Shown: in pieces, positions 386 to 20,100 of the stretch
Layout: each line of letters begins with the position of its first letter
Numbering within the stretch: position 1 is the first letter of the stretch
Origin: Hormiphora californensis
Taxonomy: Eukaryota > Animalia > Ctenophora
Direction: 5' to 3'
Assembly: GCA_020137815.1 (NCBI GenBank)
Contig: CM035361.1
Coordinates: 744,001 to 808,000, forward strand
Length of the DNA stretch: 64,000 bases
Translations under genes and position numbers: made by a program
The notes under the pieces: generated by a model
Told to the model about the DNA's origin: nothing
Seen by the model: the letters and a program-made list of their open reading frames with translations, nothing else
Database searches by the model: none

Positions 386-3300
386 CTTGTCGTTTAACCG
401 AAGTTTAGAATCATAACTTGGTGCAGTAGTAACATATCGATCTTCATTTGTATTCTCTGCCCTTTTATGTACACTCTTCCCTGAGAAGGGCCGGAGGGGT
501 TATTGCGGGGTTAATACAGATATTTACATACGGAGAAGAGGCGAATCTTAATAATTTGATTTAGTTAATTGACTCAAAATGTTACACAACTCAATTGAGT
601 TATTATTAATTCCAAATTGAGCTCAATTGAGTTATTATTTAGTTCCAAATTGAGCTCAATTGAGTTATTATTTAATTCCAAACCTTTAGTTGTATGGTGG
701 TAACTCCGGTAGAGACCCAGTGCTAACATTGAATAGTTATGGAGAAGAAACACAAAAAGCTCTCCGTATACCCTGATAGGAAAGGAGATCTGAATATCAA
801 ACTGGGTTTGAAAAGAGATAATAGAGATACTGCGATCAATAAACTAATTGCCATGGAAATGAAGTTCACCCCACGAAGCTGTTATGAGTGTTACCTGAAT
901 CTTGAAAACCGTTCATCTCGAAGTGATATTTGCGCAATTCGACAGCTCATCCTGGTCCGTAACCACGGCTGACAGTAAACAACGTTGGTGTCTTGATCTA
1001 GAAGGGGGATATCTATCAATGGGGGGGTTAGTTTTGTTCAGTTTTTGTGTACTCAACAAAATACAGGGGGTCTTTAATAATCTGTAGAGATGATATCTCC
1101 TTCCGGCTTCGATCAAGGTTATCAAAAACACGGATATTTTATTGTTCAGAACAGGGGGTTTTAGTTTCTATGAAGTGGAGGGGGAACGAATGAACAATCA
1201 GGGACTAATTCAATTCTGTGGTATGAAAGCACGTCAGTCATGAAATATTTTGTCAAGGTCATCATGAGTAGTAAGACTGTTGTAAATGTTGTTGTTGTTG
1301 GTTTGAACCAGTGCAGGAACCGACCGAATCAGGAAATACTGGTCCCTGATTGGCTGATAACCAGTCACGTGACCTAAATAACGAGTTCTGATTGGTTGTT
1401 TACTTTTGTCGTTGTCGTTAGTTTGGACAGGTGGTTGCAGCGGTCTGCTATCTCACTACCAGGAACCGACCGACACAAGTAAACAGCCAATCAGAACTCG
1501 TCATTTAGGTCACGTGACTGGTTATCAGCCAATCAGGGACCAGTATTTCCTGATTCGGTCTGTTATCTCACTACATTCGTTTTCTGATTTTCTGAGTAAA
1601 GGAGCTAACTTAGTAATTAATGGATGAGCCGCCGGTGCAAGAGTAACCACAAAATTCAGAGACTCATGATTTGGAATCTAAGTATTCTAAGCTTTTAGTT
1701 ATAGTTATAGAGAAAAGGAGGTAGTAATCGGCAGCTGTAGTAAACATTTAGATCAGGGACTGATGACTGATGACAGAGCTCAAGGTCCTGAAGACAAGAT
1801 AAGAAAAGCGAGAGAACCTTTGAGGTTAATGGACTACAGCTGTGTTTATAGCTCGTGCTAGAGGGACAAATGACACAAACTCAAGGTACAAACTCAAGGT
1901 ATAAATAAAGTGGTTGTTCGATTTGAATTATTTGGATCGCAATACACAAAATGAGAATGTGTTTATTCTTTTGTGCTTGTGTTTTTCTTCTTTCTTGGGC
2001 ACCAGTTTCCGCAGGGCCCGCCACAGGTAAATTTCAAATTCAAGGCAGTCTATTAATTTTATTGTCAACTTCATTTTCAAAAACATTACGCAGTGGTTTG
2101 TTTCAGATTGGACTGATGTTCCTACTCTTAAAGGTGAACTTATTCCGTTTTCTCTACAAAGATATATGCTGAAAATCAAGACACCAGAAACCATGATTAG
2201 TGATATAGGAATAATCAAAGTAACACTGTTTTACGATAACGAAGCAGAGACTGGTAAGTTTTGCTAACCATTCGCTAGTTTAATTTGTGACTTAGTATAT
2301 TAGGTTCACCAATTTAAATTCCGACTTTTCGCAATACTAATCCGTCATTTCTAGCGACGTTGTCTATAAGAATATGGACCGGTCACGTTAAAGCTGAATA
2401 CAATCTTGACGCATGTACAACTAACTGGACTGGTTTTTTTGGAGGAGCCTGACTTTTCACTTATACGAGTCCAAACTTGGTCTATAATAAAGACACAGGG
2501 AGCCCTTGTGATCAACTGGAACCACACGACACAGCTGCTTAAGCTCAAATATTCTGAAGGACAGAAGAAAGATTCCTGTGAAGCGTTCGGGAAAAATGAA
2601 GTGACATCCATAATGTTTAATGAGGAAGATAATGCATCAGACAAATACAAAGCTTATCCGCGAACAAATAACGGTAATATATCCACAGGACTTCCATCTT
2701 TCAAAATTATTTTTCTGCACTCCCGTGCCGTTGAACGGTCAGTGGTAAATAACCCATCGTACGGGCTTGATAATGTGTGCGTGTGTGTAAAGTCCCTATG
2801 TTGAAATTTGGATTATCGTCGTTTTAACTCAGATATGAAAATTTAACAGGAAATTACAGAATTTGTTGATCTATATCCAGCTATGGTGTTTTGAACACTA
2901 AACTGGATCTAGTTTAGTGTTCAAAACACCATAGCACTGGCAAGTGCCCCGGGGCCCTTTACCATCTAAAACCTCTCTCTATATCTAACACGGTGCCCCT
3001 GAAGGACGTTCAACCTCGACCGAGTCCCCCAGCAAAACGAACGGTTGTGTGACCTAAAGGGGACCTCTGGGAACTACGCAGGACCGTGGGGGAAAAGATA
3101 CAAAAGTAGCCTAAAAAATTAAAGCGATAGAAAGATAGCTATCGTTTTTTTCACTTTGAAAATACGACATTTCTTTAAAAAAATCCTTGATCAGGAAGAT
3201 ACAAGTGTCTCCCACCTATTTTTTGACGTAGAATCGAATGCCGTTGAAGTCAAGTCTCTAAAATGTTGGAAAAATGGTGAAAATCGCGTTTTTAGGTGTT

Positions 3301-6300
3301 TTTTGGTGAAAAACGTTCAAACTGGTACTAGATGATGAGATAGAGTCCCAAAAGTATGACAAATCGCTTTTTTGGGACATATTCGCCCTAGAAGCGATTT
3401 TTTATGAAAATCTGGTACAGCGCCTATCCTCTGTATACTTTCAAAGAAGGTGAATATTGCTCTAATTTAGCCAATTTTGAAGAAAAGTCATCCAAAATAG
3501 TACTAGATGATGAGATAGTGGCCCAAAAATATAACTAATCGATTTTTTGGGTCTTTTTCGTCCTAGAAACAAATTTGAATGGCGGTCGGATGATAAGTTT
3601 CCTCTCGGTAGGCCTCTGAAGTAGGTGGAAATAGCCAAAATATAGCGATTGCGGCAAATGAATGTGAATAAACGTTTACCAAACCCACTTTAGCATCATG
3701 TATGACCTATCTCTGGGCTACTGGACTATGCAAGAGCCATATATGATGCTGAAGTGGGTTTGGTAAACGTTTATTCACATTCATTTGCCGCAATCGCTAT
3801 ATATTTTGGCTATTTCCACCTACTTCAGAGGCCTACCGAGAGGAAACATATCATCCGACCGCCATTCAAATTTGTTTCTAGGACGAAAAAGACCCAAAAA
3901 ATCGATTAGTTATATTTTTGGGCCACTATCTCATCATCTAGTACTGTTTTGGATGACTTTTCTTCAAAATTGGCTAAATTAGAGCAATATTCACCTTCTT
4001 TGAAAGTATTCAGAGGATAGGCGCTGTACCAGATTTTCATAAAAAATCGCTTCTAGGGCGAATATGTCCCAAAAAAGCGATTTGTCATACTTTTGGGACT
4101 CTATCTCATCATCTAGTACCAGTTTGAACGCTTTTTTCACCAAAAAACACCTAAAAACGCGATTTTCACCATTTTTCCAACATTTAAGAGACTTGACTTC
4201 AACGGCATTCGATTCTACGTCAAAAAATAGGTGGGAGACACTTGTATCTTCCTGATCAAGGATTTTTTTAAAGAAATGTCGTATTTTCAAAGTGAAAAAA
4301 ACGATAGCTATCTTTCTATCGCTTTAATTTTTTAGGCTACTTTTATATCTTTTCCCCCACGGTCCTGCGTAGTTCCCAGAGGTCCCCTTTAGGTCACACA
4401 ACCGTTCGTTTTGCTGGGGGACTCGGTCGAGGTTGAACGTCCTTCAGGGGCACCGTGCTAAAGCAAGCAATGTCAATCAACAACTGGAATGTTCAAGACC
4501 TTTCTTTCTCTGGATTTATTGGTAGATTGCAGGAACCGACCGGACCAAGTAAACAACCAATCAGAGCTCGTTATTTAGGTCACGTGACTGGTTATCAGCC
4601 AATCAGTAACCAGTATTTCCTGATTCGGTCGGTTTCTGGTAGATTGAAGTACGCTGGTGTAGTTAGTACGGTGGAAGTTTACCGAGAGAGATAGATCCCG
4701 ATTCTCAGAAAACAAGCTCGGACAGATGACGAAACCAAAATCCTTTTCTTGACGAGCAACCTTTGGATTTTTGATACAATATCAAGGACTGCTACTGATC
4801 ACTACTCATAAACTGATGTTGTGTAGAATGAAAACAAACTGAGACTATTTTATATCTGTTTACCACTTTTGTTTTCAGCGAATAATAGTAACAAAGTTTT
4901 TTGCCTTATTTTATACTCAAAACCAACTGTCATCTGTTATGGGTCATCTGTCATGTCATTCCTGGTAATTTCACGGTGACTATATCAACTTGCTTGTATA
5001 TACTGAAGTGTGTGAAGACTGAAGTATCAAGTAGGTGAAACCCCAAGATGGCAAGATGTTACCAGTTACAGTGTTTGGCGTATTGGAGAATTTGTAATGG
5101 TTTACATGTCTGCAGGCACTGATAGGAGTCACAAGTGTGTACATGTATTATACCTGGGAGGCAGTTCTCAGCGGGTGCTTCATTCCGGTGATTCCCAATC
5201 CCCGTAATTAACGTCCTGATGATCCTCATTAACTTCTCATTGTAAAACGTCTGCGGGGGGAGGGGGTGGGTTAAAATATACAGCTATATAGGTTCGTGGG
5301 GTCATGGGCGGAAACAACTTGGAAGGAGAGATAAGAGAGAGATAAGAGAGAGAGAGAGAGAGTAATGTATAGCAGGTGCTGGTTGTGCTTGTAGATGAGG
5401 ACATGTATAGACATGAAGCTGGCAGGATAACTACAAATATTAGTAGAAGTAAGAGCAGGGAGATCCTGCATCTTCCTAATCTAGCTGAGAATCGGAGAGA
5501 GAGAGTTTTAGCTGCATGTATAGCACATTGAATCCTATACTTAAGCTTAGCCGAGAGTAGCCCATGTATTTGCTGTCTGACGGCGCCGATCTTCCGTTTG
5601 ACATGGTGCACTCAGACCGGGTCGGACCGGGATCGGTGCCGACAGACAGTGTATTATTATTAGTATAGCTGCAAATATATGTATAGCAGATATTATATGT
5701 ACAGCTGTCATTGTATAGCTCTGTCCCTACTTCTCTATCCCCACTGATACAAAGAGAGAGCAACGAATCCAACACGGACACAATGAATGCCTGGCCCCTT
5801 GAAAAGGGAAGGCTCATCTGCAGAGGTGGGGAGCCCTGGGTATAACCCTCCTTGGTTTGGGATACCATGAACTGGACGTTACTATCAGACACTGAAAAGA
5901 CACACAAAATGACCAAATATGGAGTTATAGCCCCCTATTTAGGACCATATATGGAGAGGTGGGGAGCCCTGGGTGTAACCCTCTGACTTGGTTTGGGATA
6001 CCATGAACTGGACGTTACTATCAGACACTGAAAATTAGACACACAGAGTGGACAATGGGAGGAAAACCTAAAATGACCATATATGGAGCCCTGGGTATAG
6101 CCTCCTAACTTCTCGTTGAGTAGTACTGCATGTATGACATATGGCTATGAAAGTTACAAATGAGCACTTTAAAAACATGCAGTTCCTACCAACTTCCTAG
6201 ACCAGTCTTTTATTTTACTAGGAACACCGATAACGAATAAGGGAACCGTAATTACTCATTAAGATAAATAGTTAGATTATGCCGTGGATCGACAGGGAGA

Positions 6301-9300
6301 ATGAAAGATGAAGATCTGCTATATAATTGGGCCAATGATGGTTGAATGCTTTAAACTCCGGGTAGAATTCTGCTTTCACTTTCACACACACAGAGATATT
6401 CACACACAGGGGAAAAAAGTCGTGCCTGAACCTCATGTTTAGGCCATGGCTATTTTCCACAGAGACCAGAGGTATATCAGATCTCAGTGAAAATAGCCGT
6501 GGCCTGAACCTGAGGTTCAGTTTCCCCCCACACACACATTAAAAACTTGTTTATCATGCAAAGAGTAGCCAAAAACAGTTGAAAATATTAGTTTTCTCAG
6601 AAACACACACACACACGCTACACAAGAGAAAGATGTTTATTGTTGTACTCGTACCAGATCTTCTCGTGACTCAGAGAGATATATTCACACTCTCGTGTGA
6701 TCAGATCGGTCCGGTACAAGCTAGACAACAAGAGAATGGAAAAGGGGAAAAGATTCGCGAAAACTGTTTTTTTCCCAGAGAGTAAAAGAGAGATTACACA
6801 CAAACTTTTATAGAAGGCTGTCTGGCGCCGCCAGTGCCCTCGGGTTAACGCCGCCAGACAGCCAGAGAAGACATGATGTATATCACACGCACACACACAC
6901 GATGCAATGATTCTCACCAATGACAATATAGCATCTAGGACGGACACAATGAAGGCCTGTCCCCGGGTAAAGGGAAGCGCCATGTATAGCGCCCCCATGC
7001 CGTTCCCCTTAGATTTCTCCATGAATTGAACGTTAGAGTCGTTTACTGGTGGGGGTGTTACGAGCTGTTTTATAGTGAGACTGTATTAGCATTAGGAGTT
7101 TATACAGTCGGACCCCGATATACTGGGCAACCCGATTTACCGGGAGGACAAACCCTTTCCCGGTGAATCGGGGACTGACTCAAGTGGTATCATGGTGAAC
7201 TGAATGGAATCATATTGATATCACCACCTAATTCAGCTCCGAACTCCACTAATTAGGGCTTAATTAATATAATTATTAATAATTAATTAATAATTAGGGT
7301 TTGATTAATAAATCAGCTCGAGATCTGAGAATTAAGAACACACATTTCAGCGCAATTACTTACCGATTTCTGAGATTATAGGAATCTGTGTCCTATTCCT
7401 AATCGGTTTCTCTGATAACCTATATTTGGCTGTGTTGGACGTATCAGTGATATCCGAACCACGGCAGCCCTTTATCTGAAAACATTTAATTCTTGTTAAA
7501 TTTGTTAAATTATAAATACAATATTCGGTTTGCCAGACTTATAACAGGGGATTTGGAAGGTAAATGAATTTTTACATTTTTTACAATATATGGTGTGTAT
7601 CGTGGTTTGACTGCCCATTCGGACCCCTATTTATCGGGCAGAACCTTTTCCCCCGAGTATCCTGGTAAATCAGGTTCCGACACTACTGCATCTTCTAGAC
7701 AACTGTTTGGTACTTTCAGTACAGCTGCTATTGATCGGAAGCGTCTCGTGATAAGACACTCTAAAAAGATTAATATGAATTATTTCATTTCTACTGTGTT
7801 TTTTGTCTTCATTTCACCTATTGAATTTACGCTACACATACTATCCTTGTGTTTTAATAAGACATAGTGGAGCAAACTTGATCTTTATTTAATTTTGTGT
7901 TTTCCCCCAATACTCAGAACACTCACAGCACGGCGACACACGACACACTGACACGCATCGCATCATGAACACCAAGCAAAGCAAAGCAGGCCAGCTAGGA
8001 TAAATCCATTGCAGGGGTGCTGATATCCCTTTCAATCGCGTCAGCCACGGTCCTTCCGGTACATATTTCTCTGCAGCGTAGTCAGGCGCTACCCCACAAC
8101 ATACGCCCTCGTGTTGCTCTCGGGTCTCTCAAGAGAGCCCCTACCAATCATAGCTTGGTCGGCTAGACGACATGTGCTAGACCAGGATCGAACCCGGGAC
8201 CTAGTGCGTGAGAGGCGAGTGTACTAGCCACTACACCACCCTGCCGTCAATGAACACCAGTCAATGAACACCAGTACAGCTCTAGTATTGAGTTGATTGA
8301 GCAGGATAACCGCTGGTGAGGGGTGTATCAGGAATGGTAGAGAGGAAACTACATCATGTTCTTATTAAAACACAAGGATGGTTTGTGTCAGGTAAATTAA
8401 ATGTGTTGGCAGATATTTTGAATCTAAACTCTCGTTCGAAAAGTTGAACTAATCTTTTTAGAGAGTGTTTTTACAAGACTCTCTCGTTATAAAACCTAAA
8501 ATCAGAAGCTCTTGCAATGGCTCTGTTATACAGGTCGGACTCCGATTTACCGGCCCTAGGAACCCCGATTTACCAGGCAAGACCATTTACTCCGAGCATT
8601 CCAGTAAATCGGGGTTCGACATAGTAGCATGTGATCACACGACCTTTCTTATTAAAACACAAGGATGGTTTATGTAAGGTAAATATAATACGTGATGGCC
8701 GTTACCCAAACTTTTGATGACTTTTTCGATGTTTTGAAAATTTGAAAAAAATCTTTTTAGAGTGTCTTATATCACAAGACTCTCCCAATGTAAAACCAAA
8801 TTTAAATTGTCCTGCAGTAGTGGCCTATAATATTATATGTGTCGAACAGCTGGGAAGCAGAGCTGTCCCAACAAGGGCGCCACCCAACTACCATGATATT
8901 GATCCTGCTAATCTCATCCTTGATTCTTTTAATTAATAAGTAATTAATTAATTACCTGTAAAAATGAGAGGATAGTTTCCTTATCAACTAAATTAGGATC
9001 GGTTGCCTTGCTCTGGAGGGCCGAGGAGAGAATGAGGCACATGAGGCAGTTCTGAACACCCGCAGATATCACATCTTCTCGCCGAATGGGTGAGCCCTGG
9101 GAGGGGGAGGGGGTTAGGTGAATGGGGTAACAACAATTGGGGGGAGGGGGAGGTGGATGGGGCTATTATTATGGGTAAAGGCAGCATTGGACATTAGCAT
9201 TCTCTTTGGAGAATTTGTGTAGTTAAACTCAAAAACCCTTAATTAATTACATGCAATTAATTTCGAAATCATTAATTAGTTGTCATTACCTCCATGAAAT

Positions 9301-11011
9301 AGACATCCTGAAACTCATCAATATCACTCCATTCCTTTTCAATGTACTCTTTCCTACCCAGCAGCAGCACCTTTTTCACCTGAGAAGAGCAATATACAAT
9401 AGAGTTTCGATAGTTAAAGGGATACTGACATATTCAAATCGACCATCTCAAATTTTAGTAAAACATTGCTCAATCAAATCATCTGAGAGAATAAATACAT
9501 TGTATCGAAGTCCGAGCTCTCTACTCCCTCTACTTCTCAAGATATAGGGACCCGAATATTAGCACCTCCTAATTGGTTATGGTAAGAGGAGGAGACCAGT
9601 ATTACAGATTACAGGTAAACACGAGCCTGTTTATATGTCATTATCTCAGCTAATACACATGCGATTTTGACCGGGTTTTTTCTAAAAACTTTAAGACCAC
9701 TTCTAGTTTCTGTTTTTTATTTCCATTTGTCTCTAGTCTTGTCATGAATAGATAGAACTATGACTAAGCAAGACCGTGATTTATTTGAAATGTATGCCTT
9801 CTTAGAACAATATTATCATGGTATTCAGTAACTAATGTCAATCAGACTTGGCTGTACTTCCTCAATTTTACATACAAATTGTTAATATTTAGCCCATAGT
9901 CAATAACATAGTCAATAGTTATTAACTATTCAGCCCTGAAATGAATATTGTATCCTAGGAGAGGATAAACTGAAAAATTTAGCCAACTAATTGGTATAAA
10001 AGGCAAAACCACTATACCCGACTAATTCTGATACGTTGAATCACGTGAGCAACTTTGGCAAGCGCTCAGGGGTGGAGAAAGTGCCCTAATTGAGCATAAT
10101 CGGGTCTAATTGATCGTAACTATAACTTATCGCATGAAAACATTATCAATTCATGTGAGAGCACTATCCCCACTAATTTTGATACGCTGAATCACGTAAG
10201 CGGCTTTTCCAAGCCGTCAGAGGTGAAGAAAGTGTCCTAATTGAGCACAATTCAGTCTAATTGGCGATACTTGCATTTTCAACTGGAAGATCGCATGTGA
10301 GGGCACTTTACACACTAATTTTGATACGCTGAATCACATGAACAACTTTTCCAAGTCCTTAGACGTCGGCAAAGTGCCCTAATTGACCATAATTGGGTTT
10401 AATTGATAATGCACTCCAGTTCACACTCCAGTTCACCTCAAACTGCAATGTTTACTTGTTTATTTACTGATATTTTTGGTCATTCTGATACATCATAAGA
10501 AAATACTAAAAATTTAAAACATTTCTAACTTCCAGAAAAAAATCCGGTCAAAATCGTGCATGTGAAAGTTGAGATATTGACAGATAAACAGACTCGTGTT
10601 TACATGTAATTTGCAATACAACTCTCCCCCTTTACCATAACCAATTACGAAGTGCTAAAAGGTGGGGCCCTATATCTTGAGAACGAGAGGGAGTAGAGAG
10701 TTCGCACTTCGACTAATCCTATTTTTATCTCCCAACCAGTTACCACACCCAGGATCGTTGAAAAAGTCAAAAATTTTTGAATATGTCAGTATCCCTTTAA
10801 CCATGTAGTGGGGAGTTGTTATGTTCAGTATGACCAGTATTTCCTGATTCGGTCAGTTCCTATTTGTGGGACGGAGAATGTCGGTCTGTCGGAGAAGATG
10901 GAGAAGAGAAATTGATCAAGATGGAAATCAGAAAGTGACTTTATAATGATGTACTGTCGTAATTTGTTCCAGAGCATATTACGGCATGTAAATGATATGC
11001 TGACCACAGAT

Positions 11012-11106
<95 letters not shown>

Positions 11107-14100
11107 TACAGTAATATGCTCGGCTATTATAATTGCTCATTATATATTTTGAATGTAACACCGCACACACACACGTTCAATGAACAATCAACTCTCAGTA
11201 ATTATAAATCTGCTAGATTGAAAGGAAAAGAAACAAGAATTAGGAAAATAATTAGACTCAGATATAGAGTGAATCGTTCACCGTTTGGTCACAACAAGGC
11301 TCTAAACTAATAAGGTTGTGTTTTCGCATCACACGGCTCTAACGGGGCTCTACTAGCTAACTCAAAATAGTAGAAAGGTTAGAAAGAACAATTAGTATAC
11401 CTCATCTGTAGGGAGGTTACTGTTCCGTAACGGGAGCAAGAGATTTCGAAGCCCCACTGTAGGGGCATTAGCATCCCCAAAAACACACACAATAATGTGA
11501 TCTGAAACACAGTTTCAGTTAGAATCGTAGAAAATAAGGGACAATTGGTTATGGAAAATTATGAAGGATGTTCAAACCTATATCCGCTAACTATGTACTC
11601 CGCCGTGATACTCAGGGTTAAGTCTCACTGAGTAGAGCCTCGAACTGCACACTTACCAGTGAGCGTAGCAACATCTTCCTTCGTCATGGTAACATCTTCC
11701 AACGCACAGGGCTCTCTCCAATGGAAAGTACCACTACCATCCAGTGTTAACCTCTCATCCAACCTGTAGGTGCAATCGATATTATACACCCATATTAGGA
11801 GATATTGTATACACACATAATATGGAGATGCTGATATATACTCATATACGGAGATGCTGATATACCACTCACTTGGCACGTTCCTCCTGGCTGAGTTGTT
11901 TCCAGTGGGGCGTGTACTCTGCCACCTCTTTTGGCCTCCTTGGTGCAGCCACGGCAGTCGAGTGGTTGTTATTGTTGTTGTTATTCGCATTCGGCATACC
12001 TCCTGGATGAGAGAGAGAGAGAGATGTTACCATGGCAACAATATATACTGATGACATATATATACTGATGACATATTTAAACTATATGACGTCATAACAA
12101 TTGCACCACATTAAATCACGTGATGATGACGTCATAATTACCGTGATGACGTCATAATTACCGTAATGACGTCATAATTACCGTAATGGGTGTTCTTGTC
12201 ACAGTTACACTTGACAATATCAGCCTGGGTAGCGTACTCGTGACACTTGAAGCAGTAGTAGGCCGCACTGTTGGAGGGGGTGGGTGTGTGCTAGTGGGTT
12301 AATACATTTAATACAAGCTCCTAATCTACGTAAAACAGTTATTATAGGACCCCGATTTACCGGGATGCTCGGGGGAAATGGTTTTGCCCGCTACATTAGA
12401 GTCCGGTAAATCGGGGTCCGACTTTTACGGGATCTCTCATAAACAACGTTTCTTTAAATGTCCTAATTTATCGATCTTAGAACTATCTCATGCTCACAAT
12501 ACCTTTTCACTACGGTTGGGTTTTGAGCGATGAAAATTCCCTGGGTCCCGTGAGAGAATGTAAACACGTGGGGGCTTGGATTGAACAGGATACTGGAAGA
12601 TATTCTACGTGTTGGTATTAGTTGTCTATTTGCAAACAATAAATCAAGATTTGATATTCATCATAATGGTTTATGTCACAAAATGTGCTACTAAATCTGG
12701 GTCTGACTGCAGTAGTTTACGATCATTACCTATAAACATAAAAGTTATTATTTAACTTATTATACCCGCTTGATGAATTAGTTTCCACTCCAATCAACAA
12801 GATATGAAGTTTGATAAGACACAACTCCGCAACTTCCGGGAAGGTCATCCCCAGAAAATCACTTGATATTGGACCGGTATAAAGCTCGTTGCTTGCTCCA
12901 AATCCGTATTCATACTCCCAATTTGCACGGCCATCCTTCGCTTGAGTCTGATGGGGGAATCATATTAGCGAGATGATACATAACAATGTGATGTCAAAAT
13001 CAAAACTGTGCGTTGCAGTTCTACTAGGAGGATGTACAATTCATAGCTTGTTTGATATAAACATGATAATGTGTGCTGTGATGGGGGTTGATTACTTACA
13101 AAGTTGTTTGGATGGAAGGAGCTCATCATGATGAGATTAGCGATCATAGTGCTGAACCCAGGACACAAACAACTCTTTCCAAGTAGACCCAACTTCAACT
13201 GAAATATAATACATGGAAATATTGTGTTATACTAATTACATAGTAACTATCCACCGTCGATGCTTGTATAGACAATGTCAGTCATGTTCAATAACAAGGG
13301 GTCCAAAATCTTCAAATTACCGTATAAAACTAATTTAATTACCTAACTATCTAACTACTAAAACTCCACCCTCATTAATTACCTACTTACCTAAGTATCT
13401 AATTAATTACCTAATTATCTAATTAATTGCCTAATTATCTAATTAATTACCTCATTAATACAGATGACCTCATCGCCGTGTAACTGATGATTCCAATCAG
13501 GCACATTAAACAGGTGTTCCTCATTGTGATAATTTAAAATCTGAATTATAACCCGAACATCTGATTTATAGTTCTTCAAAGATATCACTCTGAAGAGAAG
13601 GGGTGTTTTGGTTTTTAGCTTTGTTTAATCAATTACATAATTATAATTATTAATTAAATTTAGTTCGGCTGGAATTTAAATTCTTGAAGTTGTCTAGTTT
13701 GTATTTGGCCCTCTTTTAGTTTTCACTCAGAATAGAGTTATCATTGGATCGTGGGGGAGAAGGGAACAATATAACCAACTTTCAGACAAACTGTGAAACT
13801 CACAAATCACACCCAATTTATAGGCCAAATCACACATAAATCACACACAAATCACACATAAATCACACACAAATTAGTGTGTGATTAGTAATCACACTTT
13901 TGTACCTGAGAATGTTAGCGGCGTCCTCTGCATCTGGCTCAGCGCTGTGTTTGTTTGCGATTACCAGGCATGCCTTGGCCGTCGTTAATTTTACCCGACT
14001 TAAATCGTTAGCACGCAACGGAGATCCCTGTGAGATATAATAATACTTTCTGCACGAACACAGTGTCAGGCGACTCAAGTGAGATAGAAGGTTGGATTTA

Positions 14101-17100
14101 GGCTTTAGCCGGGAGGGTTCAATTTCCTCATATTCTGATGATTCAGACAAATTAATTTCATTTCCCACCATTTCCCCAAACATCTCTACTTGACGAATGT
14201 CGGGCTTTCCCAATTTTAGTGCCCTAAAATCTTGGTACAAACCTAAAATCGATCACTCACCTGATAGTACTGGCATCGGTAAAAGTTTCGATGCATCAAG
14301 TTTTGCAGATCTTCCGGGGGTGGTATCCTGTAATGGAGGAAGGATAATAATAATAACAATAATAATATCAGCATTTGTATACACGCTCAGACCCTGTAGA
14401 ATACTAGAATCTAAAAAACCCTAGTAACACAGAGCATCAGAGCGGTTCACCTTATGATAGTATAGGTCTTTTTATATCTTTATGAAAAAGCTGCGGTGGC
14501 AGCAGCGTGAGACACGGTAGTAGGGAACTATGCAGCTTTATAACTTACGATGAACTAATGGAAAAAGGGAATCAGCATAGTAAGGATCCTTTTGGGGAAC
14601 ACACAAAATCCGACAAATTGCTGTTAGCATGGCAGAATTTACCGGCAAAGTAAGTAATTAGTAAAACTTACGTGTTAAGAAATACAGCGGTTGTTTCGTG
14701 ATCTTCATTTTCCGGATGAAGGAAATCCCTCATAAAGTTACTGACGGTACTGGTATTGATATACCCGCAAACCACCTGGAGGGAAAGATGTAATCTTTTC
14801 CGGGAAAAAAGGAAATTAAGATTTGTTGAACTCTTAAGAGTTGCAGCTCGATGGTAATATCAAGACGTTCCCGTGATTATAAATCTAACGCATTACTACA
14901 TAAAATCACGCGTGACATTGTGTAACAGCTATGTAAAGTTTAGAAACACCATATTAGGGAAACACCATATTCGGGCATACATACCACGTGACTACTTTTG
15001 CTGTCATCGTATTCCATCAAATAGGGAGGGTTCTTTTTAAACATCTCCACTAAGGCCGGACCGAAAGATGCAAACACCATCTGTATAGATGGTATGGGTG
15101 TTGTTATACATGTGTTGTTAGTGTACTAAGGTTTTAGCTGTAAAATATTCGCTGAGAGTTTTAGAGAAAAGTTGAAAAGAGAGCTCATGCACATTGAAAA
15201 CAAGAATTGGATCCAGTGATCATCATCATCAGAGATGAAAAAGTTTATGAAGGAGCAATATCATATGATCACTGGATCCACAAATACGACAAAACTGCGG
15301 TAACACTTAAAATCACACGCTGAGTATAACATCTAGCTCGGCCGACCCTTAAAATGGAGGAAAAATGGAGAGAGTTTCAACCTTTCACCAAAGGATCTTC
15401 ATTCGATGACTTTACTGAAATATTGTATTTACCAGAACCCCAAATCATGATCTTAAACACTGAAATTTCCGCTGAATGATGTTTCCGTGTAAGGGTCGAC
15501 CGAGTTTTGTGTTTTTTGTTGAAGCGGGCACCAGATCAGAACATGTTGAAGAGTGCGTAAATTGATAGATTTGGGGGATGCAAATACTCGAATTTTCGGA
15601 TCCCACACGTGACAACATATATGGTATGTGTTTATTATGTCCATATATGGTACATGTGTTTGTATAAACCCACAAGAAACAGCTATCTCTCTCGAGCTGG
15701 ATATGTTTAGCACCATATTTGGGCATATGTAACTCACCACTCCGAACGCAATGAGGAAGATGATAACGATTCGGGTGCTCATTACTTTGGGAGATATGTC
15801 ACCATACCCAATTGATGTCACCGTTACCTAGGTGATTATTCAGTGAACGATTCATCATTCAGTGACAACCTACACGATGAACTCGATTTAGGTGGACAGT
15901 TTTTGTTGGGTATACATTGTTTTGTAAAACCACCCATCAGAATCGTCTGATTTTTTCTTGCCTTTTGCGCCTGATCCCAGCCGGTAACCACCATTTCCTT
16001 TTAAATTTTCAAAGAGATACATCACACATGTAAAGTTCTTCTGGTGCCCGCTTCAAAGACACAATGCTGCACTGCTAGCCGGATGGGAATGATATATCAT
16101 TCTGACACTCACCAGACCTATTCCAATGAGAATGATAATAACAGCCTTGCTGTACGGTGTCTCTGGGTTTATGTCTCCGTACCCGATTGTCGATATTGTG
16201 ACCTATTGCAATATAATATGACCCGTTTAATATCTGTTCGAGAGCTCAGATATAGCCTAGAGCCATTCAGATATATACCCAGTTTTGTTAAATTACGCAT
16301 TTTCTTCAATCTGAGCTTTTGTACCCTCTAAACTAACCCAACAACGTTGCCCCATCCCCATCAACCCACAATTATCATTCCACCCCCGCCCCTCCCACCC
16401 CACCACACCCCACCCAACCTCACCCCTCCCACCCCACCACACCCCTCCCACCCCCGTATACCCCCTTTGGAACTCACAATGAGAAAATAAAGACACTGGA
16501 AAAAGTCGAGACTGCTGACCGGATCAGACATCTTAGCGACAATGTAGTATAGACCCGCTGCCGATAACCAGAAACTGACGAACTGGCATAACGTCCGAGA
16601 GAGGGTCAACATTTTACTGAGGGAGGGAGAAGGTCAACATTTTACTGAGGGAGGGGAGAAATAGGGTCAACATTTTACTGAGGGAGAGGGGGACAGCTTG
16701 ATAATCATTGAAAAACGTTAACTCGGAGATAAATTAATTGTTCATACTCATTTATGAGGTTAATGATAGTGTTCTCCGAACATAAGAGAATCTAATCAAG
16801 TCAAGATGAAATAGTATGGATCTGCATATATATCTTGTTTTAAAAATAGAGCTCGAAATGAGTCCTGTGGTCCGAAGTTCGAATGTTCAATTCTAATCAA
16901 CTCACTGTGAGGAGATAAGCTTCACTGCAGCCACGTCATCTCCAAAAGATAAAAGCTTTAACGCCCGGACAAACCGTAAACCTGGAAAAATTTGTTAAAT
17001 TGTTGCCCTATTTAAAAAAAGAAGAAAAATCTGAATTGTTGTCCGCTATATAATGCGTGACACACAGCTGACCCAAGATTTGCTAAATGTTTCTTTCTAC

Positions 17101-20100
17101 TTGAGTCGCAGCTGTGCCCGCGTGTATTATCAAGTACATGAATAACATTTCAACTCTTATCACTTACCTAACCAGGTTTTTCCGATTCCTATGGCAACTA
17201 TTGCTGGTGGAATGGTACAAAAATCAATAAGGGAACCAACCTCAACCCAAAAACACAGCTTATCTTTTGATACGATATACTGAAACATAAATCAGATGTA
17301 ATGATCCCCCATGCTGACCTGTATTACATGTATTGTAAAATTAAGAAAATAAAATAAGTTCGGTACATTTTGAAAATTGCTCAACAGCAAACTCGATCTC
17401 ATCTGTTAACTTTTATCAACAAACACATGAACTGAATATATCAAAACTCTTATAAAACTGAACTATCTGATCTCTCTTACCATGATAATGAATCTCCAGA
17501 GAAAAAATAAGTTGCAAATTAGCTCCGTAATAATAATGGCATCGGTGTACTCAACACACCTTTCCGTCTGGTAGAAGGTATTTGTAACAAACATTCCTGG
17601 GGGAAGGTATTTGTAACAAACATTCCTGGGGGGGAAGGTATTTGTAACAAACATTCCTGGGGGGAAGGTATTTGTAACAAACATTCCTGGGGGGAAGGTA
17701 TTTGTAACAAACATTCCTGAGAGAGATTGGGTGAGAGAGGGGAATTAAACAAACATTCCTGGGGGGAAGGGAGAAATTAAGAGGAAAATATTGGCCTACG
17801 CTGCAGTCCCCTATTATACCAGCCCTAGTATTAGTAAAAAAGCAGCCTGGCTGCACGTCGCGAAGCGTGGCTTTTTGAGCGAAAAGCCTGGTTTCCGAGC
17901 CCACCGAACTTTTGGGGTGGTTATTGACGGAGAAGCCTCGCTCAAAAAGCGAGGCTGCTTTTTTACTAGTGGCCGTCAAAAAAGTGTGTAGTGGTGGTCT
18001 GCAACGTATGCCAAAGGGAAATCATGCTTGATCTCCAGAGAAAGAAATTAAACAGTTTCTCCGGATAAGCTGGAATCATTTCCCTGTGGAGAGGGGAATC
18101 CTTGAAAGGATCGGGAGTGACAAGTGTCTCAAATATATGACGACTCCCAAACACAGACCTATTTATAGAAATAAGATTCATTATCACTAATATTACCTAT
18201 AGCAATTAGATTCATAATGATTGACATCCAAGTCATAGTCCGTCCTTTTTTAGTTTTCGGATAACTTATATCCTCTGCGAACTGCACCACCTTCCGTTGT
18301 ATGTTGTACACTCGTCGTAAAAATCTGGGAGACACAACAGCTCTGTCGGTTTGTTAGGTACGGGTTTTTTTCTTGTGCAAAGATGAGGTGGGAAGATAGT
18401 ATACGGAATCGAGAAGAATGGTTAGGTTTTTTCTTGTGCAGAAGATATTATAGGAAGTTGTTAGGTACGGGTTTTCATTTTCTTGTGCAGAAGAGGGTAG
18501 GAGCAGTTTGTTCAGTAAGGGGCCGGGACTCTCAACAAGGAGCAGTATATAATAGGGAAGTAATGAGAAGAATTGGGAATGTGTAAAGGAATATATTGGG
18601 ATCTCAAAAGACTACCTTGAATTGTGCTTCAAGGAGGGGAAGGATCAGAACGAATTTACTGTGTTTGTTCAAGGTCAAATGGGGTAACGAATAATCAAGA
18701 AGGTTAAATGATCAAAATTAGTTTGATGTTCACTTTGATTTACCAGGATCGATTTGGTGCTTTGATTGATTTGTTTTGATTTAGGAAGTATATAATTAGG
18801 ACATCAAGTGGAATCACTGATTCAATCAGAGAGAGAGACAGATGAATAATATATAATTGACAGTGATAACCTACATATAGGTAAAGTTAACTCTCATATT
18901 AAACGTTGGACCATCATGATCACTGCCATCAGAACTAAGTATTGATGGACGTAATGCTTTCCTTCGTCCACTGTGATAGAATTCGAGAGATAGAATTCGA
19001 GAGATAGAATTCGAGATATAGAATTCGGGAGATAGAATTCGGAAGATAGAATTTGGGGGGATTGAGATGTATTAGAAGAATAGAATTGAGATAGATAAGA
19101 AGAAGGAATGGCCTCTAGATAAATTTTGGGTAGTTTGTCAAATACCACACCTTGAATGTCTTTGATTTCCAATCAACATTCTGAGTAAATCGAAATGGAA
19201 ACATTGGATCGGTTCAGCTCAAAGAGAACTGAAAGCAAAGCTGTGGCCTGCACAACTGCTATGAAACGATTAAGTTCCACCATGGAGGTGAAATTAAACT
19301 TTTGATGAAAAAGCAAACACATTTAACGAAGTTCACGTTTGTGTCTAACCATCATCAACGCCGAAATAGGGAACAACGTGATGAAGGTCAGAGCCTAGTT
19401 CACGCGGTGTTTATTTCGAGGTGTCTGTAGCAGTAAAGTACGGTACCTGATACAGCTAAAATTAATTTCTTCCTGCTCATAATCTCTTCTTCTTCTCCGT
19501 TGTCGCTGCTTGTTCCACTGTATCAGTTGCACTGTTGAGAAGAGAGAGAGGGGACGATTATTATGGAAGTATCAGCTGTCCAGCTACCTTGTCGCATATA
19601 AGACCGTCCTCTTCGCACCGGGCGAGGCAGGGAGGGATCCTCATTTTTCTAGAGGGTTTCGGCAGGGGGAGGGTGGGGTTGGGGAGGGTGGGGGTTTGTT
19701 GTACACTTACAGGTGAGACGCCAGCTCATGATGACCATAAGACCCCCGATAAAGGGGACCACGGATGAAATTATAAAAATTATCCATGTCCCCTCTGGCT
19801 GGCAGGTCGCTCCGCTCTTAGTCAGGAAACCGCCTGAGTACAGGTGTTATTAGTTGGGATCGGAATGGATTGAGGAAATGGTAAAAGGTTTCATCAAAAT
19901 AAAGACTACAAAGCTGATCTGGGACAAGTCGAAAGAAGTATGAAGGGGAAATCAAATTTTCAATAAATGAGAGTTTGGAAATTGGGAACTCCAACAAATT
20001 GCAATTGGTGAATTGGGGTTTTGGTTAATAGGATACGAGTAAATGGGGGTGAACACTCCAGTGAATTTTAGAGGCTCCGACTTGTTGGTATGCTACACTT

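What the first reader, a model, noticed from the sequence alone, without database searches (positions are those of the whole stretch)
12766..17279. Concerted loss of RCK1 Ca2+ and Mg2+ ligands in the same channel
By eye-alignment to mammalian Slo1 numbering, the RCK1 Ca2+ site shows D367>E (LHPENED), R514>S (MMSSF) and E535>G (NELYTG). The Mg2+ site shows E374>T, E399>Q (RCQYYQ) and N172>K (IVSKDK). With the missing bowl, all three known divalent sites are altered while the fold motifs remain intact. This suggests a change of ligand rather than pseudogenisation.
Basis: partly seen in the sequence, partly recalled or inferred. Interest (0 to 1): 0.7.

Follow-up and report, generated by a model that had tools for sequence, protein, structure and literature searches.

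The report
Comb-jelly potassium channel lacking calcium bowl
An intact, spliced comb-jelly gene for a BK-type potassium channel lacks the calcium-bowl loop and the magnesium site but keeps two acidic residues at the second calcium site, so it likely works as a voltage-gated channel with weakened, single-site calcium control rather than one that has lost all metal sensing.

Summary
The interval is part of an intact, spliced minus-strand Slo1/BK-type gene of a ctenophore (82% identical to Mnemiopsis and Bolinopsis proteins). The key one is wrong: E535 is kept (codon GAG, 12887-12885); the glycine cited is position 539. D367 becomes another carboxylate (Glu) and R514 binds Ca2+ through its backbone, so the RCK1 site is altered, not shown lost. 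The missing Mg2+ site is not special to this gene: the bowl-bearing ctenophore paralog, a sponge and a sea anemone Slo1 lack it too. What is real is a ctenophore clade (two of three Mnemiopsis KCNMA1-like genes) with no bowl, D367E, both ends of the R514-E902 link gone, and mutually exclusive exons at pore and bowl. It is separate from Slo3 in the tree. Likely mechanism: voltage-gated K+ channel with residual RCK1-only Ca2+ control (0.5). Bowl-less Slo channels are known (Slo3, plant BK), and this scan noted two in other genomes. New variant of a known kind; interest 0.42.

The parts
386..19833 (-). Slo1/BK-type channel gene, 30 exons located (28 per isoform); start-codon exon and last exon(s) not located
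   Evidence: tblastn with Bolinopsis protein; all listed exons flanked by AG/GT, 1015 and 1026 residue frames without stop
19711..19833 (-). Exon with S0 transmembrane helix
18197..18324 (-). Exon S0-S1 loop and S1; D99>Q at 18284-18282
17168..17279 (-). Exon S2-S3 loop and S3; N172>K at 17267-17265
   Evidence: spliced in run X7
16906..16981 (-). Exon S4; R207 and R210 kept, R213>K at 16958-16956
   Evidence: spliced in X7
16478..16616 (-). Exon S5 and pore helix
   Evidence: spliced in X7
16113..16202 (-). Pore/S6 exon A (90 nt, TIGYGD filter), mutually exclusive with exon B
   Evidence: two pore versions in Bolinopsis and Mnemiopsis isoforms
15738..15827 (-). Pore/S6 exon B (90 nt, SIGYGD filter)
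   Evidence: use in this species not shown by RNA
14672..14775 (-). RCK1 exon: D362 and H365 kept, D367>E (14712-14710), E374>T (14691-14689)
14261..14327 (-). RCK1 exon: Q397>R (14278-14276), E399>Q (14272-14270), H394>N
13906..14027 (-). RCK1 exon
   Evidence: RNA joint in X9
13451..13589 (-). RCK1 exon with N449 kept (13573-13571)
   Evidence: RNA joint in X9
13100..13198 (-). RCK1 exon: M513 kept, R514>S (13123-13121)
   Evidence: RNA joint in X9
12766..12947 (-). RCK1 exon: S533 (12893-12891) and E535 (12887-12885) kept; E539>G (12875-12873)
   Evidence: RNA joints in X9
12503..12592 (-). RCK1 exon: S600>Q (12525-12523), a backbone ligand position
   Evidence: RNA joint in X9
12182..12267 (-). 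Exon with CxxCH heme motif (human 612-616) kept
   Evidence: motif listed in PMC4319557 table 1
6918..7045 (-). Bowl exon A: flanks conserved, acidic loop replaced and one residue shorter; E902>A
   Evidence: used in spliced X9 contig
5731..5891 (-). Bowl exon B: in-frame alternative, also without an aspartate run
   Evidence: matching exon in 5 of 11 Bolinopsis isoforms aligned

Best explanation
This is a working gene for a BK-type K+ channel subunit from a ctenophore clade that has no Ca2+ bowl and no Mg2+ site, and it likely opens on depolarisation with weakened Ca2+ control through a remodelled RCK1 site alone. Shown: intact S0-S6, GYG filter, both RCK domains; bowl aspartates absent in both alternative exons; Mg2+ ligands replaced; E367, E535, M513, S533, D362, H365 present. 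Inferred: Ca2+ is still held by E367 and E535 plus backbone carbonyls at 514, 533 and 600; R514>S reflects loss of the R514-E902 link to the vanished bowl (E902 is Ala here; both are kept in the bowl-bearing paralog); the fixed positive charges K172 and R397 would partly stand in for bound Mg2+ and shift activation to less positive voltages. The bowl was most likely lost after a gene duplication, independently of Slo3.
For: Ungapped alignment of the exon to human 523-572 and of the ortholog to Aplysia Slo1. RCK1 ligands are the D367 and E535 side chains and the R514, S533, S600 backbones; R514 side chain contacts E902/Y904 (PMC5677106 section 12). Bowl-neutralised Slo1 (5D5A) keeps about half of the Ca2+ effect on the voltage sensor (10.1101/520429 passages). 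E367+E535 in all 7 ctenophore relatives scored and the window protein, whereas a mammalian Slo3 has Lys at both. Q397R mimics Mg2+ (PMC5677106); E399C/N172R activates at V1/2 132 mV against 201 mV for E399C (PMC3557308 figure legend). Model of the Bolinopsis ortholog: RCK1 site segments at pLDDT 80-91, bowl loop 851-854 under 50; gating ring TM-score 0.88-0.92 to BK rings.
Against: No functional data. The effect of D367E on Slo1 could not be read (Zhang 2010 not held; no BK paper in the D367E search); from memory, unchecked, that site tolerates changes of side-chain length poorly. The whole RCK1 is conserved in this clade, so retention of E367/E535 is not specific evidence of Ca2+ binding; E535 is kept in 67 of 82 other rows and acidic residues at 367/535 are frequent in the remotest hits. 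The R514-E902 contact may help keep the RCK1 site intact, so its loss could disable the site. R397 is common (20 of 80 rows), so the Mg2+-mimic idea is not special to this gene, and its partner R213 is Lys here. Model coordinates could not be inspected.
Confidence: 0.5

Rival explanations
1. The channel is insensitive to Ca2+ and Mg2+ and is gated by voltage alone or by voltage plus pH, heme or redox (a functional analogue of mouse Slo3 or plant BK). This is the surviving form of the first reader's idea.
For: Bowl and Mg2+ site absent; D367E is rare (3 of 80 other rows); R514-E902 link gone; H365 and CxxCH kept; Marchantia BK lacks these sites and responds to pH but not Ca2+, Mg2+ or Na+ (10.1101/2021.06.01.446568 passages).
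Against: Both RCK1 carboxylate positions stay acidic, unlike Slo3; H394, the second proton sensor, is Asn in this paralog; no positive sign of any new ligand site.
Confidence: 0.3
2. The protein acts mainly as a modifier subunit: it co-assembles with the bowl-bearing ctenophore paralog, supplies N449 to its neighbour's bowl and dilutes Ca2+ sensitivity.
For: N449, the inter-subunit bowl ligand, is kept although its own bowl is gone; a bowl-bearing paralog exists in Mnemiopsis and Bolinopsis.
Against: N449 is kept in most Slo1-like proteins; the paralogs are only about 31-34% identical; pore and S4 look competent for homomers; no co-expression data seen.
Confidence: 0.12
3. The clade never had a bowl: it is a relic of a pre-bowl stage of animal BK.
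For: It branches outside cnidarian plus bilaterian Slo1, and in the best tree outside the sponge and the other ctenophore paralog (support only 78/49); plant BK has no bowl.
Against: Long branch (1.0) with a long-branch warning; FastTree put it beside the bowl-bearing ctenophore paralog (0.22); bowl flanks, loop length and N449 are close to bowl-bearing Slo1; the second paralog's alternative exon still has three aspartates in the loop.
Confidence: 0.12
4. A decaying or non-functional copy.
For: Several functional residues differ from Slo1.
Against: Open frame, canonical introns, spliced RNA contigs, 42 of 43 scored differences silent, same substitutions across the clade.
Confidence: 0.02

Closest known systems
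Slo1/BK (KCNMA1, slowpoke); human 6v22, Aplysia 5tj6
   Same: S0-S6, GYG filter, RCK1/RCK2, E535, M513, H365, N449, CxxCH; best sequence (E about 1e-200) and fold matches for the ortholog
   Different: No bowl, D367E, R514S with E902A, no Mg2+ ligands, R213K, R167 absent from S2, E321 absent; about 37% identity
Bolinopsis XP_063691788-800 and Mnemiopsis ACHWQZ_G000068 (orthologs), G000824 (sister paralog)
   Same: 82% and 68% identity, same residues at all RCK1 and Mg2+ positions, alternative pore and bowl exons
   Different: Annotated automatically as calcium-activated or hypothetical; they keep one Asp in bowl exon A that this species lacks
Ctenophore bowl-bearing paralog (Mnemiopsis G000808, Bolinopsis P0338)
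   Same: Also lacks the Mg2+ ligands (P172, R374, S397, Q399)
   Different: Keeps acidic bowl, D367, R514, E535 and E902
Slo3 (KCNU1)
   Same: S0-bearing Slo with degenerate bowl
   Different: Nested in vertebrate Slo1, far from this clade; the Slo3 examined has Lys at 367 and 535
Marchantia MpBK2a (plant BK)
   Same: Voltage-gated Slo without bowl or Mg2+ site
   Different: RCK1 Ca2+ residues reported essentially absent; shown Ca2+-insensitive; sequence not compared here

Membership tests
S0-bearing Slo (Slo1/Slo3) subfamily | Seven transmembrane helices including S0, with K+ filter | tested here: met
   Exons for S0-S6 and TIGYGD; helices in ortholog model
S0-bearing Slo (Slo1/Slo3) subfamily | Two RCK domains forming a BK-type gating ring | tested here: met
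   PF22614, PF03493, PF21014 above cut-off in the ortholog and PF03493 in a window exon; TM 0.88-0.92 to gating rings
Canonical Slo1/BK | Ca2+ bowl with D895 and D897 | tested here: not met
   Lys and Asn at these positions in exon A, no aspartate run in exon B
Canonical Slo1/BK | RCK1 Ca2+ site (D367, E535 side chains; 514, 533, 600 backbones) | tested here: inconclusive
   E535 kept, D367E, backbone positions aligned without gaps; geometry not inspected
Canonical Slo1/BK | Mg2+ site (D99, N172, E374, E399) | tested here: not met
   Q, K, T, Q; also absent from bowl-bearing ctenophore, sponge and anemone Slo1, so it is not universal in the family
Canonical Slo1/BK | Activation by micromolar Ca2+ and voltage, large conductance | not testable with these tools
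   Needs electrophysiology
Slo3 (KCNU1) | Descent from the vertebrate Slo1 duplication | tested here: not met
   Slo3 rows nest in chordate Slo1 (100/100); this clade lies outside cnidarian plus bilaterian Slo1 (100/99)
Slo3 (KCNU1) | Loss of RCK1 carboxylates as well as bowl | tested here: not met
   E367/E535 here against K/K in P0171
Slo3 (KCNU1) | Activation by alkaline pH | not testable with these tools
   Needs electrophysiology
Slo2 (KCNT) | No S0; closer to KCNT than to KCNMA1 | tested here: not met
   S0 present; KCNT1 E 1.7e-35 against Slo1 7.8e-202

The most novel reading that the evidence does not exclude
Comb jellies keep an early-branching BK lineage that senses Ca2+ through RCK1 alone, possibly from before the bowl arose, and use mutually exclusive exons to swap the loop that sits where the bowl is; the Mg2+ site is a later, bilaterian addition. 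BK's three metal sites would then have been assembled stepwise, with a living one-site stage to test.
Probability: 0.12. Interest if true: 0.72.

Novelty: new variant of a known kind. Interest (0 to 1): 0.42.

Why it matters
Two of the three ctenophore KCNMA1-like genes lack the Ca2+ bowl, yet a 2026 study of Mnemiopsis muscle treats all three as activated by voltage and Ca2+ (PMC13749725 passages). The clade is a natural one-site BK: it tests whether the RCK1 site works with Glu at 367 and without the R514-E902 link, and it points to the bowl-bearing paralog as the likelier carrier of strongly Ca2+-dependent current. The survey also suggests that the textbook Mg2+ site is not ancestral to animal BK. 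It is not a new kind of channel.

Tried and rejected
No whole genome is held for this window, so paralogs in this species were not counted; tblastn of the bowl-bearing paralog on the window hit only this gene's exons. Small indels as markers of ctenophore monophyly were inconsistent. The AU test of 'all ctenophore Slo genes form one clade' and a motif tally across ctenophore isoforms could not be run: the script machine was lost. The ESM Atlas search added nothing beyond Slo-like RCK. No complex prediction was sent: no binding claim is made and full subunits exceed the size limit. RNA contigs for pore exon A or B and bowl exon B were not among the listed pieces (table cut), which says nothing about their use. 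Zhang 2010, Yang 2007 and Yang 2008 are not held. PMC4112547 and PMC3966514 gave nothing on D367E. Pseudogene, Slo2 and Slo3 readings rejected as above.
Full report
Gene. Six-frame reading and tblastn with a Bolinopsis protein show one intron-rich gene on the minus strand from 19833 to 386. Thirty exons were placed, all with AG before and GT after; 28 are used per isoform and give 1015 or 1026 residues without a stop. The start exon and the last exon(s) were not located. The model is 82% identical to Mnemiopsis ACHWQZ_G000068 and Bolinopsis XP_063691794, 67-70% to a second ctenophore paralog group and 37% to a bird Slo1, so the source is inferred to be another ctenophore. Contigs of two seawater RNA runs of one study (X7, whose RNA status is a guess, and X9) lie on exons only, with 0-4 differences per piece; X9 shows three GT-AG joints at 13906/13589, 13100/12947 and 12766/12592, around the R514 and E535 codons. 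Of 43 exon differences from a related organism's DNA run X8 that I scored, 42 are silent. These come from cut tables (40 of 552 and 40 of 43 rows shown); I left out intron rows, rows seen only in other runs, and four X8 rows at 19485-19503 (read by hand they also leave the residues unchanged); X8 may include paralog contigs.

Observation. The ortholog aligns the same Glu to Aplysia E525, the equivalent of E535 (PMC5677106 passages). D367E, E374T, E399Q, N172K and R514S are as stated. PMC5677106 sections 12 and 16 list the RCK1 ligands as D367 and E535 side chains plus backbone carbonyls of 514, 533 and 600, and place the R514 side chain against E902/Y904 next to the bowl. Here S533 and M513 are kept, 600 is Gln, and E902 is Ala. 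The bowl exon keeps its flanks but has no acidic residue at 894-898; its best PDB match is the engineered bowl mutant 7yo2. All four Mg2+ ligands are changed (D99Q, N172K, E374T, E399Q; the D99 alignment is the least sure), and Q397 is Arg.

Relatives. A library-wide phmmer with the Bolinopsis ortholog, three word searches and name look-ups found three Mnemiopsis genes on one contig. G000068 and G000824 share the window's residues at every RCK1 and Mg2+ position and lack the bowl. G000808 and its Bolinopsis ortholog keep the acidic bowl, D367, R514, E535 and E902 but also lack the Mg2+ ligands; so do Oscarella (sponge) and Actinia (anemone) proteins. Of 94 rows examined, 67 had ungapped context; of the 60 outside the bowl-less clade, 28 have bowl plus D367/E535 without E374+E399, 14 have all three sites, 13 lack an acidic bowl and 5 have a bowl but other residues at 367/535 (the set is enriched for divergent paralogs). 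Glu at 367 occurs in 3 of 80, Glu at 535 in 67 of 82, Arg at 397 in 20 of 80. The Mg2+ site is therefore often absent, and its absence here is not part of a concerted event.

Tree and model. IQ-TREE (LG+G4, no mixture model, 30 rows, 990 columns) gives the 8 bowl-less ctenophore rows 100/100, outside cnidarian plus bilaterian Slo1 (100/99); Slo3 rows nest among chordates; the order of this clade, G000808 and Oscarella is unresolved (78/49, 55/36) and the program warns of long branches. A FastTree of 149 rows was no clearer. An AlphaFold2 model of the Bolinopsis ortholog (the spliced window protein could not be sent) has mean pLDDT 75, under 50 in the bowl loop, and matches BK gating rings at TM 0.88-0.92.

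Alternative exons. The window has two 90-base pore/S6 exons and two bowl exons, each pair in the same phase. Both pairs recur in Bolinopsis isoforms (bowl B in 5 of 11 aligned) and the pore pair in Mnemiopsis. The X9 contig uses bowl exon A. Neither bowl exon restores the aspartates.

Mechanism. Shown: an intact channel gene without bowl and Mg2+ site, with two carboxylates at the RCK1 site. Inferred: gating by depolarisation with reduced Ca2+ control through RCK1 (0.5). In Slo1 a neutralised bowl leaves about half of the Ca2+ effect (10.1101/520429 passages; PMC2234011 abstract). Positive charge at 397 mimics Mg2+ and N172R on a neutral 399 lowers V1/2 from 201 to 132 mV (PMC3557308 passages), so K172 and R397 would favour opening; R397 is not special to this clade. 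Against: I could not read data on D367E, the R514 link may support the RCK1 site, and E535 may be kept for structure. Ca2+-insensitive gating is the main rival (0.3). In Mnemiopsis muscle cells, intracellular Ca2+ raises outward current, but the gene is not identified (PMC13749725 passages).

Novelty. Searches for ctenophore with BK channel or calcium bowl, ctenophore with Slo1, Mnemiopsis with KCNMA, wider combinations (listings only) and passages of 10.1101/2025.02.15.638427 showed no description of bowl loss in ctenophore BK; PMC13749725 has no occurrence of 'bowl' in its main text. The library lacks most subscription papers, and supplements were closed. Bowl-less Slo channels are known from Slo3 (PMC5677106) and plants, and two earlier notes of this scan report bowl-less paralogs in other genomes (not checked here). 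Verdict: observation partly confirmed, headline overstated, a new variant of a known kind. Interest 0.42.

Noticed in passing
window 15827-15738 (-): Pore exon B has Ser in place of the filter Thr (T287S; SIGYGD), while both Bolinopsis pore versions keep Thr; could change ion occupancy or block.
   Followed up: partly
window 6105-5816: The 5' part of bowl exon B is tandemly duplicated upstream (48 nt identical, spacing 136); the upstream copy has an acceptor but runs into a stop.
   Followed up: partly
window 17567-17481 and 16981-16906 (-): Voltage sensor is rearranged: S2 has Arg at 163 and Met at 167 (R167 in Slo1), R213 is Lys in this paralog but Arg in the sister paralog, E219 is Asp.
   Followed up: no
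window 15080-14985 (-): E321 of the inner ring of charge is Ala and the RKK motif after S6 is replaced; lower conductance would be expected (recalled role of these residues).
   Followed up: no
P0031 (Bolinopsis XP_063692571): The sister paralog also has an alternative bowl exon, with three aspartates in the loop: a possible partial bowl switched by splicing.
   Followed up: no
P0157, P0176, P0198: A shark-type Slo1-like clade has Glu at 367 together with an acidic bowl and no Mg2+ site: a second natural D367E.
   Followed up: partly
P0175, P0178, P0182, P0189, P0193-P0195 and kin: An unnamed expanded Slo clade from ENA assemblies has Trp at position 213, often Ser at 514, and partly acidic bowls.
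   Followed up: no
window 17800-17520: The acceptor and start of the S1-S2 exon (17596) lie in a tandem array of about 31 bases that offers several look-alike acceptors.
   Followed up: no
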